A stretch of DNA of 23,030 nucleotides from a virus, in the IMG/VR virus record IMGVR_UViG_3300042467_002537. One strand, given 5' to 3'. Position 1 is the stretch's first letter. Every line of letters starts with the position of its first letter. The position numbers and the translations under genes were made by a program. Shown here piece after piece: positions 1-2,492 of this stretch. Below the pieces are notes generated by a model that searched no databases, was not told the origin of the DNA, and worked only from the letters and a program-made list of their open reading frames with translations.

Positions 1-2492
1 GAGCAGTTGGTAGACAGTTTAACTTTGGTGAACTTGTGCAAGAAAACAAAACAATAAACAGCATGCTGAAAAGAGCAAAGCTTAATCCAACATCAGCTGA
101 AGCAAGAAGCTTAAGAGAAGCAGGCTTGGGTAAATTAATTGATGACCTAGAGCTAACTACAATAAGAGGTAGAACAGTTATAAAAAATCCATTTGAGATT
201 ACCTCAATGGCTTTGAAGACTGCATTCACTGGCGACACTATGTCGGATGCTCTAGCTAGAGTTAGGGGCGATGATGGCCTGTTCAAGGGCATGGTTGTAC
301 CTGGAGACGATGGGTTCCAAATACTGAAGTTTGGACTTCCAGGTATGGATTTAAATGAAAAAGAAATAGCTGCGTTAAAATCTTTAATGAATACTGGGCA
401 ATTACAAAAGAGCACCCTAATAGAAGCTTTAAAAAAGGGAGAGGGTGGGCTAGAAAAGCAACTGGGTAAAGTTGGAAAGCGTCAAAAAACATTTGCATCT
501 GCAAGGCAAATTTCGATATCTGGAGTAGGCATAACTGGTGGGTCAGGTGCTACTGGATTCCTAGGTGGTGTTGGCACACTAGAAGAAGCCATAGAGGCTT
601 CAGACACTAGGGCACAAGCTTTGATGGCGGCTTTATCTGGTAAGGTTTCTGGAAAATTAAAGACTGATTTAGAAACAGCTTTTAGCGGCGTTGGTCATAA
701 ATTTTATGGAAACTTTGGTTTATCAAAAGCAGCAGGTGATGAAATTCTTGATATGGTTTTTGATCCAAGCGATCCAGGATCGGCGGTAGCGTATTCACAA
801 ATGGCAAAGATGATGAGGAGAGCAATCGCAACAGCAGGTCCAGATGGAAACGTTACAAAAGAATTTGAAAAATTAGTTAAAGCGCTGCCTGGTACAAGGC
901 AAGCGTTTAAAAATCAAATATCAGCTACATTATCCGGACTTGAAACGTCTGTTGACGGTGCATTTTATATAAATAGAAAATACCTAGAAAGAACAGTTCA
1001 AGATTGGAGTGCAACGGTATTAAATCATGAAAGAAATATGGCTAGCGGCGTTGTGATGGGAGAAAACGCACAAGAAGCATATTTATCATTGAGGCAACAG
1101 TTAAGAACAATTGGGCAAGAGGTTACCGATAAAACAGGGAAAGTTATTGGCCATAGATTAAAAGATAATATAGAATCTTATGACTTCTCTGGAAGAACTG
1201 GATTCCATAATACTCTAGGCGAACGTAAACTAATAAAAGGTAGAATGTATGTATCAGACGATCTGCCTGATGACATTGGATTTTTAACCCCTGACATTAT
1301 GATCAAATCAGAAACTGGATTTGAAGAATTTATAAACTTTGATATAACTGGAGGTGGCAAACGACCACCCGACGCCATTGCACCAGACTTCCAGATGGCA
1401 GTTTTTCATAGTGGAGAATTTTTAGAAACAGCTCCAGATGGGTCTAGGGTTGTTCCTGCTGTGACTAGAAGATATCAACAAGAGCTACAAGCAGAACTTG
1501 AACAGATAACAAGAACAGGTATCATACCAGCTAATGTAAGACAAAGATTAATTCAGGACATGGAGTCAAATTCGGTAGACGAATTTATGGCAATTTACCA
1601 ACCTCATAAAATTGGATCTAAAGAAAAAAACAAAGAGATGGTTAGAAAAATAAATAACGCTATCTTAGAAAATAACGTTACTGACGTAGACACTATTGCG
1701 GCAATAAGTAATTATTATAGAAATCAAATGTTTAGCCAAAAGACTACCGGTCAAGGCATCAAGCAAAGAACTGTAAGAATACCCAACATGCCGGATTTGC
1801 AAAGATACAACATAGAGTCAGAGGCTAGCCGTTTAATGGGACAGCCAAACGAAGCGCGAATGTTAACTGGATCTAGAGGGTTTGCTAAGTCAAAGATAAT
1901 GGATGAATCAGGTGCGCTAGTTGATTTAGAGTTAATGACTACACGAGCACATCAACACAGCCTTTTGTTTAGCGGAAGAGCATCGGTTGAGTACCAAGCA
2001 GCATTAGGAGGATTCGACTTTGACGACAAGGGAATGCCGATACTAAAAAGTTACCAAGACTATTCATCTGGCACTCCAAAGAAAAAATTAGCTTTATTTA
2101 CCACAAGACAACCAACTGGCCCTATGGAATACGTTGTCCAAGATTTCTTAAAAGATCAAGAAACTCTTAATGAAATTTTTGGTCATAATAAATCTTTTAT
2201 GGCTGGTTTAGAAGAAATTGCTACTAGCGGCGATACTGAGGCTATGGAACTTTTAGAATACATGAGGATGGTTCCTGATTCAACTAATGCAAAAAGGTTT
2301 TCGTCTTTGCATAGAAAATACGCTGGTGTTGGAGTCACTGGCAAAGATATAGCCGCTGGAAGATTCTTTGGTTCTGGTGATTCAACCCTGCTTGATGCAA
2401 GCAACTCATATTTCTCTCAAGGGCAAGACCAGGCAACTAGGGTTATAGAATCGGTTTATCAGCACTTGCGGAAGCGGAGTTACCGAGCTTAG
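1..2492 (+). CDS. N-terminal part (5'-truncated by the window) of a giant virion-associated protein in the tape-measure position; contains candidate two-barrel RNA polymerase motifs
   Basis: The frame is open from position 3 (AVGRQFNFGELVQ...), so the GTG at 36 is probably not the real start. Motifs: VDGAFYIN (951-974), FSGR...IKGRMYV...PDIMIK (1185-1307), LLFSG...ALGGFDFDDK (D codons at 2016/2022/2025), TRQPT (2103-2117). It ends in TAG after an uncharacteristic RKRSYRA tail overlapping the open +1 frame. Confidence 0.6.
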   Translation, partial: AVGRQFNFGELVQENKTINSMLKRAKLNPTSAEARSLREAGLGKLIDDLELTTIRGRTVIKNPFEITSMALKTAFTGDTMSDALARVRGDDGLFKGMVVPGDDGFQILKFGLPGMDLNEKEIAALKSLMNTGQLQKSTLIEALKKGEGGLEKQLGKVGKRQKTFASARQISISGVGITGGSGATGFLGGVGTLEEAIEASDTRAQALMAALSGKVSGKLKTDLETAFSGVGHKFYGNFGLSKAAGDEILDMVFDPSDPGSAVAYSQMAKMMRRAIATAGPDGNVTKEFEKLVKALPGTRQAFKNQISATLSGLETSVDGAFYINRKYLERTVQDWSATVLNHERNMASGVVMGENAQEAYLSLRQQLRTIGQEVTDKTGKVIGHRLKDNIESYDFSGRTGFHNTLGERKLIKGRMYVSDDLPDDIGFLTPDIMIKSETGFEEFINFDITGGGKRPPDAIAPDFQMAVFHSGEFLETAPDGSRVVPAVTRRYQQELQAELEQITRTGIIPANVRQRLIQDMESNSVDEFMAIYQPHKIGSKEKNKEMVRKINNAILENNVTDVDTIAAISNYYRNQMFSQKTTGQGIKQRTVRIPNMPDLQRYNIESEASRLMGQPNEARMLTGSRGFAKSKIMDESGALVDLELMTTRAHQHSLLFSGRASVEYQAALGGFDFDDKGMPILKSYQDYSSGTPKKKLALFTTRQPTGPMEYVVQDFLKDQETLNEIFGHNKSFMAGLEEIATSGDTEAMELLEYMRMVPDSTNAKRFSSLHRKYAGVGVTGKDIAAGRFFGSGDSTLLDASNSYFSQGQDQATRVIESVYQHLRKRSYRA

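What the first reader, a model, noticed from the sequence alone, without database searches (positions are those of the whole stretch)
1959..2141. Non-canonical catalytic loop (DFDDK) and RQP motif placed after, not before, the aspartate loop
Two-barrel polymerases use DxDxD (DFDGD; DFDID in phi14:2), and the R-x-P motif (NRQP/NRAP/RSP) precedes it. Here the loop reads GGF-DFDD-K, one residue shorter, and FTTRQPTG lies about 30 codons downstream. Inference: either a permuted DPBB-A with a novel active-site geometry, or a catalytically dead polymerase fold reused as a structural or DNA-binding ejection protein.
Basis: partly seen in the sequence, partly recalled or inferred. Interest (0 to 1): 0.75.

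Follow-up and report, generated by a model that had tools for sequence, protein, structure and literature searches.

The report
Tail-module polymerase-like protein, rewritten active site
A giant protein encoded among the tail genes of an uncultured large phage is predicted to fold like the one-chain relatives of cellular RNA polymerase, but its metal-binding loop (DxDD) and its Arg-x-Pro loop differ in spelling and order from every described member, and this odd arrangement is strictly conserved in the more than 200 relatives examined.

Summary
Window 2007-2030 encodes GGFDFDDK, and 2106-2114 encodes RQP 27 residues downstream. The ORF is 946 aa and starts 349 b before the window.

An exhaustive search found 114 cluster representatives, mostly 1500-1800 aa. 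In the 103 that carry the core, DxDD, RxP and a Glu seven residues after the Arg are invariant. None has an acidic residue at position 5, and none fits the canonical [RK]xP...DxDxD pattern.

An AlphaFold model (pLDDT 90) matches only single-chain two-barrel RNA polymerases over long stretches: RDR2, QDE-1, and Thermus phage gp64/gp62 and gp96. Z is modest (4.6-5.9). The alignments end just past the Asp loop, in register with gp96 779-DFDGD-783.

Complete 193-210 kb relatives also carry free-standing 792-855 aa paralogs reading HGGxDxDD...RSP/RNP....E.

My reading is a probably active, probably injected polymerase with a rewired active site. The barrel's secondary-structure order looks canonical, with RQP on an extra hairpin, so a true permutation is not shown. 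A dead enzyme is unlikely.

No coordinates were available, so the geometry is inferred. Earlier notes of this scan describe the same family on other DNA.

The parts
3..2492 (+). ORF1: residues 118-946 of a 946-aa protein (P0004) that begins 349 b upstream of the window. It is the front part of the polymerase-like protein.
   Evidence: AF2 model m95071eddd46b has pLDDT 90.1 and pTM 0.88. The family has 114 representatives.
954..959 (+). D435-G436, invariant in the family (consensus ExxxDGxxxxN). Role not assigned.
   Evidence: D in 100% and G in 99% of about 77 sequences.
1113..1388 (+). Beta-rich region, residues 488-579, carrying the conserved residues R515, K529, K552, E554 and D579. It is the candidate second (beta-like, DPBB-B) barrel with the basic residues.
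   Evidence: Secondary structure; conservation. Equivalence to QDE-1 D709/R738/K743 was not established.
1449..1730 (+). Helical connector between the two beta-rich regions, residues 600-693.
   Evidence: H600-622, H627-639, H642-648, H651-672, H679-693. QDE-1 and gp66 have a connector of about 140 residues between their barrels (10.1101/2020.03.07.982082).
1731..2060 (+). Candidate DPBB-A, residues 694-803. The predicted element order is canonical and ends in the Asp loop and beta6.
   Evidence: secondary structure. VIA alignments to RDR2, QDE-1, gp64/gp62 and gp96 end at model residues 798-816.
1941..1958 (+). T764-R765-A-H-Q-H769, family consensus F-R-x-x-G-H, at a hairpin turn 24 residues before the Asp loop. 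It is a second, less conserved Arg (88/103) upstream of the loop.
2007..2030 (+). G786-G-F-D789-F-D791-D792-K793: the non-canonical acidic loop (DxDD, with K at position 5).
   Evidence: The gp96 alignment 123..802 vs 327..793 puts D789 opposite D779 of 779-DFDGD-783, with the loop one residue shorter (PMC10770324).
2079..2147 (+). Hairpin after beta6: strand 810-819, R819-Q-P821 turn with invariant E826, then strand 827-832.
   Evidence: Searches show the same pattern in the fused homolog: E308-321, E327-339, RQP 339-341, E347-352. Invariance.
2449..2514 (+). +1 frame break between ORF1 (stop at 2490-2492) and ORF2 (ATG at 2512). Homology to fused relatives continues in the +1 frame from about 2467.
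   Evidence: All relatives at >=77% identity have the same 932-959 aa ORF1. P0030 and P0031 are fused (1820 and 1781 aa). P0028 is split about 205 aa further on.
2512..4980 (+). ORF2 (822 aa, P0002): the back part of the same ancestral protein. It ends in a hydrophobic helix and a GPPxLPGGxxYE tail that is conserved in the family.
2908..2958 (+). I133-G134-G-Y136-I-N138-K139...S145...Q149 (family consensus LGxYxN[RK]xxxxxSxxxQ), in a long predicted helix. It is a bridge-helix candidate only.
   Evidence: G 99%, N 98%; helix 620-648 in the model of P0030:500-1270. No structural match supports the assignment.
3070..3072 (+). D187 of ORF2, invariant (AxD). Role unknown.
   Evidence: 88/88.

Best explanation
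ORF1 together with ORF2 (one protein of about 1770 aa in relatives) is a divergent single-chain two-barrel nucleotide polymerase of the QDE-1 / crAss gp66 / Thermus-phage gp96-gp64 kind. It is encoded inside the contractile-tail module and is most likely carried in the virion and delivered with the DNA to make the first viral transcripts. Its active site is rewired but probably live. The Mg-binding loop between helix alpha2 and strand beta6 of the catalytic barrel reads GGFDxDD(K): three carboxylates within four residues instead of D-x-D-G-D. The Arg-x-Pro element, which in QDE-1 is the 'Pro-gate loop' that reads the ribose 2'-OH and the minor groove of the incoming NTP, is not at its usual place before the loop. 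It sits at the tip of an extra beta-hairpin directly after beta6. Because the hairpin's second strand runs back antiparallel to beta6, R819-Q-P821 and the invariant E826 should return to the side of the Asp loop. Shown here: the motifs, their invariance, the predicted fold and its best structural matches, the conserved gene neighbourhood, and paralogs with the same motif order. Inferred: the 3-D position of RQP, metal binding, polymerase activity, and virion packaging.
For: The motifs are invariant in 103/103 representatives and none has the canonical pattern. The AF2 model has pLDDT 90.1 and pTM 0.88.

In the search of 48,161 PDB representatives, the only long alignments are to two-barrel RNAPs. 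ZmRDR2 is rank 1 (Z 5.9, 305 residues, rmsd 4.2). P74 gp62 is rank 2 (Z 5.6, 240 residues). QDE-1 is rank 9 (Z 5.0, 376 residues). P23-45 gp96 is rank 37 (Z 4.6, 192 residues). In the second look at Foldseek's own matches, the top seven are all such enzymes.

The alignments end at model residues 798-816. For gp96, model 802 pairs with residue 793, which places D789 opposite D779 of 779-DFDGD-783 with a loop one residue shorter (PMC10770324 Fig. 1).

BFVD gave three uncultured-phage proteins at E 2e-8 to 4e-6. It also gave crAss-like giant-protein chunks at probability 0.69-0.87 and a phage protein named 'RNA-dependent RNA polymerase' at E 0.03.

Synteny is conserved down to about 27% identity: sheath, tube-like genes, a giant of about 2000 aa, this protein, an ORF of about 155 aa, a giant of about 3900 aa, then the baseplate.

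Three of four near-complete 193-210 kb relatives also carry a free-standing 792-858 aa ORF that weakly matches the core. The two that were read spell HGGDDLDDT..RNPNDFGE and HGGMDEDDF..RSPNGYGE. All 120 listed members of that paralog family keep HGGxDxDD, then 21-24 aa, then RSPxxxxE. hhalign puts the two motif blocks in register (E 4e-4).

A tape-measure-fused virion RNAP in P23-45 is a precedent (PMC10770324).
Against: The structural Z-scores are modest (under 6), and Foldseek against the PDB found nothing at E <= 1e-3.

No sequence or profile link to any known polymerase was found. This covers Pfam, PHROGs, PDB profile searches, and hhalign against phi14:2 gp66 and a crAss profile.

Two of the eight residues held to be invariant in all two-barrel RNAPs are not where the rule puts them, and the third Asp is displaced (PMC2919709).

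The model of a fused homolog covering the expected bridge-helix and trigger-loop region gave only helical-bundle noise.

The counterparts of the beta-like barrel's Asp and Lys residues were not identified. I could not read model coordinates, so the closeness of RQP to the Asp loop is inferred from secondary structure. No member comes from a cultured phage, so there are no proteomic or activity data.
Confidence: 0.55

Rival explanations
1. This is a true topological rearrangement of the catalytic barrel. The strand-RxP-strand unit that normally forms beta3-beta4 of DPBB-A has been moved behind beta6 by permutation or strand swap. The barrel is therefore closed by different strands than in all known polymerases. 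The enzyme is still active.
For: R-Q-P-T-G preceded by a hydrophobic strand looks locally like the canonical strand-N-R-Q-P-S-L-H of Rpb1 (from memory) and the G-Y-R-I-P-T-Q-G of crAss RNAPs. R and P are invariant, while the canonical site before the loop has no R-x-P. One QDE-1 alignment and one RDR2 alignment run on to model residues 814-816 rather than stopping near 800, so the register of the last strand is ambiguous.
Against: The predicted element order 706-803 already supplies the full canonical beta-beta-alpha-beta-beta-beta-alpha-beta pattern. Only one strand separates beta6 from RQP, and no strand follows helix 836-844, so a second half-barrel is not there. Six of eight RNAP alignments stop at 798-802.
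Confidence: 0.15
2. This is a polymerase-derived fold that no longer polymerises. It would be a structural, DNA-binding or channel-forming ejection or tape-measure protein that keeps a metal- or DNA-binding patch.
For: It sits in the tape-measure position of the tail module. ORF2 ends in a hydrophobic helix and a Pro/Gly-rich tail. The universal DxDxD signature is broken. Bridge helix and trigger loop were not confirmed. In this lineage the protein is split in two.
Against: The three Asp, R-x-P and E are absolutely conserved in 103/103 tail-module members. The same holds in 120/120 free-standing paralogs that are not in the tail module. That pattern argues for chemistry rather than scaffolding. 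Further conserved basic and acidic residues (K273, K276, R277, R285, D435, R515, K529, K552, D579) are typical of a nucleic-acid enzyme.
Confidence: 0.15
3. This is not a polymerase relative at all. It would be another metal-dependent enzyme, for example a nuclease, a Toprim-like DxDxxG domain or an AEP-like DxD...H primase, and the RNAP matches would be a chance common arrangement.
For: Z is below 6, under the level the aligner's own notes call safe. No sequence-level link was found. DFDDKG also fits the Toprim D-x-D-x-x-G spelling (from memory).
Against: No Toprim, AEP or nuclease chain appears among the structural matches. Four different two-barrel RNAP families are at ranks 1, 2, 9 and 37 of 48,161 chains, with 192-376 aligned residues. 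Every other high row is a helical-hairpin match of 40-118 residues. The alignments end in register with the catalytic loops of gp96 and QDE-1.
Confidence: 0.1

Closest known systems
Thermus phage P23-45 gp96 (virion RNAP fused to the tape measure protein) and gp64 (non-virion RNAP); PDB 8h2m, 8f72, 8f5m; PMC10770324
   Same: It is a single-chain two-barrel fold by structural match (Z 4.6-5.6). It is encoded in the tail module at the tape-measure position. The phage genomes carry a large tail-module form plus a smaller free-standing paralog. The Asp loop aligns with gp96 779-DFDGD-783.
   Different: gp96 and gp64 have canonical DFDGD/DxDxD with [RK]xP upstream; here the loop is DxDD and RxP is downstream. 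No sequence similarity was detected. The host phage has a contractile tail (sheath, baseplate J/W/V) rather than a long siphovirus tail. Here the protein is a separate gene, split in two, next to other giants rather than the N-terminus of one 5002-aa TMP.
Neurospora QDE-1 and plant RDR2 (cellular RNA-silencing polymerases); PDB 7y7p, 7y7q, 5fsw, 7w84, 7eu1; PMC9508822
   Same: These are the best and longest structural alignments (305-376 residues, Z 5.0-5.9). The local spelling is similar: L-S-G-G-D-Y-D-G-D versus L-G-G-F-D-F-D-D. An R-x-P element is present.
   Different: In QDE-1, R962-S-P964 lies 43 residues before D1007 and the loop is DYDGD. Here R819-Q-P821 lies 27 residues after D792 and the loop has four positions. 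Identity is 8-12%.
crAss-like phage virion RNAP (phi14:2 gp66, 1361-DFDID-1365; PDB 6VR4; 10.1101/2020.03.07.982082)
   Same: It is a giant virion-associated protein among structural genes. It has a non-glycine fourth loop position and a Lys right after the last Asp: DFDIDK versus DFDDK. There are weak BFVD matches to crAss-like giant proteins (probability 0.69-0.87).
   Different: crAss enzymes keep five loop positions and have GYRIPTQG 37 residues upstream. hhalign against a crAss profile is insignificant. The phage type is different.

Membership tests
Two-barrel (double-psi beta-barrel) RNA polymerase superfamily | Overall fold: two beta-barrel domains with a connector, as in QDE-1, gp66 and gp96 | tested here: met
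   The AF2 model has pLDDT 90.1. RNAPs of four families are at ranks 1, 2, 9 and 37 of 48,161 chains and fill the top seven of the second look, with 192-376 aligned residues. Z is only 4.6-5.9, so this is met at modest strength.
Two-barrel (double-psi beta-barrel) RNA polymerase superfamily | Invariant DxDxD Mg-binding signature in barrel A (PMC2919709; PMC10770324) | tested here: not met
   The loop is DxDD in 103/103. Position 5 is K, S, H or T and is never acidic.
Two-barrel (double-psi beta-barrel) RNA polymerase superfamily | Invariant R-x-P 20-100 residues BEFORE the Asp loop. This is the survey filter [RK]xPx{20,100}DxDxD in PMC10770324 Supplementary Data 4. | tested here: not met
   0/103 match. 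The invariant R-x-P lies 27 residues AFTER the loop. Upstream there is only F-R-x-x-G-H, with R in 88/103 and no Pro.
Two-barrel (double-psi beta-barrel) RNA polymerase superfamily | Barrel B: one Asp and two basic residues near the metals (QDE-1 D709, R738, K743) | tested here: inconclusive
   Conserved R515, K529, K552, E554 and D579 exist in the beta-rich region 488-579. Residue equivalence could not be read without coordinates.
Two-barrel (double-psi beta-barrel) RNA polymerase superfamily | Bridge helix and trigger loop after barrel A | tested here: inconclusive
   The conserved LGxYxN[RK] motif lies in a 29-residue helix of the fused homolog model. Structure searches of that model returned only helical-bundle noise.
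Two-barrel (double-psi beta-barrel) RNA polymerase superfamily | Mg-dependent template-directed NTP polymerisation | not testable with these tools
   This needs biochemistry.
Tape-measure-fused virion RNAP (P23-45 gp96 type) | Encoded at the tape-measure position of the tail module | tested here: met
   The gene order is sheath, tube-like genes and two small ORFs, then the 2176-aa giant, this protein, a 156-aa ORF and the 3985-aa giant, then SLT and baseplate V/W/J. The order is the same in distant relatives.
Tape-measure-fused virion RNAP (P23-45 gp96 type) | [quoted passage not shown] | tested here: inconclusive
   Which of the neighbouring giants is the tape measure was not settled. ORF2 has a C-terminal hydrophobic helix. 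No virion data exist.
Tape-measure-fused virion RNAP (P23-45 gp96 type) | Sequence relatedness to gp96 / DFDGD | tested here: not met
   There was no sequence hit in PDB profile searches, and the loop is DxDD.
crAss-like virion RNAP (gp66 type) | DFD[IV]D loop with YRIP upstream; profile similarity | tested here: not met
   The crAss consensus is. hhalign gave probability below 1%.

The most novel reading that the evidence does not exclude
A large clade of freshwater jumbo-phage polymerases, comprising tail-module forms of about 1600 aa and free-standing forms of about 800 aa, runs a phage-only transcription relay. Its two-barrel active site breaks the 'eight invariant residues' rule in two ways. 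The metal site is built from D-x-D-D, and the Pro-gate Arg-x-Pro is supplied from a relocated strand after beta6, possibly helped by an extra invariant Glu. This would be the first known re-wiring of the most conserved catalytic centre in biology. Motif-based surveys have missed the clade by design.
Probability: 0.35. Interest if true: 0.85.

Novelty: new variant of a known kind. Interest (0 to 1): 0.72.

Why it matters
The DxDxD loop and the upstream R-x-P are treated as universal for cellular-type RNA polymerases and their viral relatives. Published surveys use exactly that pattern as a filter (PMC10770324 Supplementary Data 4; PMC2919709). The family is widespread: 114 clusters at 50% identity and 121 IMG/VR contigs, including complete genomes of 202-210 kb. 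If it keeps the fold but uses DxDD followed by RxP, several things follow. The catalytic centre is more plastic than assumed. Existing catalogues of viral RNAPs are systematically incomplete. Tail-delivered polymerases are not a Thermus-phage curiosity but occur in contractile-tailed jumbo phages too. It also gives a clean experimental question: can three carboxylates in four residues hold the catalytic Mg?

Tried and rejected
- **Family libraries.** Pfam and PHROGs gave nothing meaningful for ORF1, ORF2, the fused homologs, the 2176-aa neighbour or the paralogs.
- **Cultured phages.** tblastn of the protein and of a consensus-like core against 50,697 phage records found no match. Megablast of the window found none either.
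- **PDB by sequence.** Profile searches with A3 and A6 and phmmer with a paralog found nothing relevant.
- **hhalign against known RNAPs.** Comparisons with phi14:2 gp66 (whole and DPBB-A region) and with a six-sequence crAss DPBB-A profile were insignificant. The best-scoring piece merely laid FDLD on FDID.
- **ESM Atlas.** Searches by features and by shape found nothing.
- **Second fold.** I folded the natural fused homolog P0030:500-1270 to look for a bridge helix and trigger loop. The model is good (pLDDT 86.9), but all three structure searches were swamped by helical bundles, sigma factors and cyclins. This gives no support either way.
- **Canonical RNAP elsewhere.** I checked whether the real RNAP is a neighbouring giant with a canonical motif. 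The 2176-aa, 822-aa and 156-aa ORFs have no DxDxD. The loose regex hits elsewhere in the record fall in tube-like, hub and 444-aa proteins and look like chance.
- **Other enzyme classes.** I considered AEP primase (DxD...sxH), Toprim (DxDxxG) and Pol-beta NTase (GS...DxD) from memory. I dropped them because no such chain appears among the structural matches.
- **P23-45 supplement.** The motif strings were not found there, but the alignment file (Supplementary Data 3) is not held, so this negative means little.
- **Relatives' contigs.** The 154-kb and 86-kb ENA contigs could not be searched for paralogs because the records are not held.
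Full report
**What is in the window.** The + strand ORF at window 3..2492 is the last 829 residues of a 946-aa ORF (P0004). It starts 349 b before the window in a 41,985-b IMG/VR virus record. CheckV estimates the record at about 20% complete, and its GC is 39%. At window 2007-2030 it reads G786-G-F-D789-F-D791-D792-K793. At 2106-2114 it reads R819-Q-P821, 27 residues later, followed by E826.

**Genomic setting.** The record is a one-strand structural module. It runs tail sheath, three tube-like paralogs and two small ORFs. These are followed by a 2176-aa ORF, this 946-aa ORF, an 822-aa ORF, a 156-aa ORF, a 3985-aa ORF and a 444-aa ORF. 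Last come an SLT-domain protein and baseplate V/W/J homologs. The protein therefore sits in the tape-measure region of a contractile-tail module. The same order is found around relatives at 38% identity and at about 27% identity.

**One protein in two ORFs.** In relatives P0030 (1820 aa) and P0031 (1781 aa), ORF1 and ORF2 are one chain. P0028 is split about 205 residues further on. In the window, homology to the fused forms continues in the +1 frame from about 2467, before the ATG at 2512. All relatives down to 77% identity keep the same break, with ORF1 lengths of 932-959 aa. It is therefore not a sequencing error. Whether it is a stable split or a programmed +1 shift was not tested.

**Is the motif conserved?** An exhaustive phmmer search of 1.84 billion cluster representatives found 114 proteins, most of them 1500-1800 aa. 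Their best-conserved stretch is query residues 550-870. I aligned the 159-aa core of the 103 representatives that carry it. G786, D789, D791, D792, R819, P821 and E826 are invariant. F788 is present in 95/103 and K793 in 94/103. The residue after D792 is never acidic, and no sequence fits [RK]xPx{20,100}DxDxD. Sequences that at first seemed to lack the motif merely read GTFDLDD. Other conserved charged residues are K273, K276, R277, R285, D435-G436, R515, K529, K552, E554, D579, R718, E724 and R765. In ORF2 they are G134, Y136, N138, K139 and D187.

**Fold.** With a 105-sequence alignment, AlphaFold2 gave a confident model of the 946-aa ORF (pLDDT 90.1, pTM 0.88).
- Foldseek against the PDB found nothing at E <= 1e-3. 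Its weak list held QDE-1, E. coli beta-prime, P23-45 gp96, phiKZ nvRNAP and a plastid RNAP chain.
- The Foldseek-independent aligner, run against 48,161 PDB representatives, ranked maize RDR2 first (Z 5.9, 305 aligned, rmsd 4.2) and P74 gp62 second (Z 5.6, 240 aligned). QDE-1 was ninth (Z 5.0, 376 aligned) and P23-45 gp96 was 37th (Z 4.6, 192 aligned). Every other high row is a match of 40-118 residues to a helical hairpin or bundle.
- In the second look at Foldseek's list, the top seven chains are all single-chain two-barrel RNAPs.
- The Z values are modest. What carries the argument is that four separate RNAP families rank so high with such long alignments.
- BFVD added three uncultured-phage proteins at E 2e-8 to 4e-6 and crAss-like giant-protein chunks at probability 0.69-0.87. 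It also returned a phage protein named 'RNA-dependent RNA polymerase' at E 0.03.

**Does the loop sit at the catalytic position?** The RNAP alignments all end at model residues 798-816. For gp96 the range is 123..802 against 327..793. gp96's metal site is 779-DFDGD-783 (PMC10770324, Fig. 1 legend). Residue 802 is 13 past D789, and residue 793 is 14 past D779. That is what one expects if D789 pairs with D779 and the loop here is one residue shorter. For QDE-1 (catalytic D1007, D1009, D1011; PMC9508822), model residue 801 pairs with 1023, consistent within a few residues. Compared with crAss DFDIDK, DFDDK looks like loss of the fourth position. Compared position by position with bacterial DFDGDQM (from memory), it puts Asp at the Gly position and Lys at the third-Asp position. 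The insignificant hhalign piece suggests a third register, FDLD on FDID. The register is not settled.

**Permuted barrel or added hairpin?** The predicted elements are E706-711, E719-723, H724-727/H740-743, E744-750, E756-767, E770-773, H775-784, the loop 786-792 and E793-803.
- This is the canonical strand-strand-helix-strand-strand-strand-helix-[Asp loop]-strand order of a double-psi barrel (my knowledge of the beta-prime barrel).
- Then follow E810-819, R-Q-P and E827-832. The fused homolog's model shows the same pattern (E308-321, E327-339, RQP, E347-352).
- Strands 793-803 and 810-819 have equal length and are joined by a six-residue loop. They therefore most likely form a hairpin, and R819 comes back next to K793 and D792.
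- I infer that the barrel is not circularly permuted. Only one strand lies between beta6 and RQP, and no strand follows helix 836-844.
- The canonical place for R-x-P, the turn at 751-755, holds only a conserved Gly.
- A less conserved F-R-x-x-G-H (R in 88/103) sits at the next turn.
- All of this rests on secondary structure, because the tools do not return coordinates. A strand swap remains possible (I give it 0.15).

**Function of R-x-P.** In QDE-1 the R962-x-P964 'Pro-gate loop' bonds the 2'-OH groups of the 3' end and of the incoming NTP, and contacts the NTP's minor groove (PMC9508822). R, P, the three Asp, and an Asp plus two basic residues of the other barrel are the 'eight invariant residues' of all two-barrel RNAPs (PMC2919709). 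This family keeps an invariant R-x-P and three invariant Asp, but in another order and spacing, and it adds an invariant Glu.

**Paralogs.** IMG/VR holds 121 confirmed contigs with the family, among them complete DTR genomes of 202-210 kb.
- In three of four near-complete genomes, a second, free-standing ORF of 792-858 aa weakly matches the core (E 1.7e-5 to 7e-4).
- The two ORFs that were read spell HGGDDLDDT...RNPNDFGE and HGGMDEDDF...RSPNGYGE.
- All 120 listed members of that paralog family have HGGxDxDD, then 21-24 residues, then RSPxxxxE.
- A profile-profile alignment puts both motif blocks in register (E 4e-4, probability 34%).
- The DxDD, RxP, E order is thus kept in two divergent families, one of them outside the tail module. 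This argues strongly against a decayed, purely structural site.
- It also recalls the vRNAP/nvRNAP pair of P23-45.
- K793 is not kept in the paralogs (F or Y instead), so it is not part of the clade-wide core.

**What was not found.** There is no sequence-level link to any known polymerase, no cultured phage with the family, and no paper describing a DxDD two-barrel enzyme. There is also no structural support for a bridge helix or trigger loop in ORF2's conserved LGxYxN[RK] helix. The published survey filter [RK]xPx{20,100}DxDxD would exclude this family by construction.

**Earlier notes of this scan.** Notes on other genomes describe the same family and its paralogs in a 202-kb lake phage. 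I used the paralog note as a lead and tested it independently.

**Verdict.** The reading 'two-barrel polymerase with novel active-site geometry' is supported at moderate strength. A 'permuted barrel' is not shown and is less likely than an appended hairpin that carries the Pro-gate. A 'dead enzyme' is unlikely. The protein fails two sequence-defined membership criteria of two-barrel RNAPs while matching their fold, so I class it as a new variant of a known kind.

Noticed in passing
window 2449-2514: There is a +1 frame break between ORF1 and ORF2. The +1 frame reads ...CGSGVTELSNPVLRAMAVTKSGG..., matching fused relatives (YGSGVAEIS...) before the ATG at 2512. The break is kept in all relatives at >=77% identity, while more distant relatives are fused or split about 205 aa later. 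It could be a stable split or a programmed +1 shift; this is undecided.
   Followed up: partly
L099:574-2952 (-), L101:202-2769 (+), L100 (complete 193-210 kb IMG/VR relatives): Free-standing 792-858 aa paralogs carry HGGxDxDD...R[SN]P....E. They are candidate non-virion polymerases of the same clade. The family has more than 200 members, all unannotated.
   Followed up: partly
window 5472-17429: The 3985-aa ORF matches phrog_20474 (labelled 'endolysin', E 6e-119, residues 1243-1612 and four other stretches) and phrog_8809. It has no Pfam hit. It carries a GDTDGDG string at residue 2119 that is probably unrelated to polymerases.
   Followed up: no
G000:C1:6811-9475 (upstream of the window; L002): Three consecutive paralogous ORFs (229, 265 and 356 aa) match phrog_9206, labelled 'major head protein'. 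They sit directly after the tail sheath, where tube proteins are expected, so the label is probably wrong.
   Followed up: no
G000:C1:10891-17421 (upstream of the window; L002): A 2176-aa ORF overlaps the start of ORF1 by 4 b (ATGA). It has no Pfam or PHROG hit and no DxDxD. A giant of about 2000 aa occupies the same place in distant relatives. It may be the actual tape measure.
   Followed up: partly
L014 (crAss-like phage cr7_1, NC_055895.1 50467-51162): The RNAP region of this crAss-like phage has five in-frame stops under table 11, consistent with stop-codon recoding in that phage. I left it out of the alignment.
   Followed up: no
P0004 residues 445-505 (window 984-1166): A long helical hairpin just before the first beta-rich region attracts most of the short structural matches, including E. 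coli beta-prime residues ~190-237. It may correspond to the duplex-binding helix that precedes barrel B in single-chain RNAPs.
   Followed up: no
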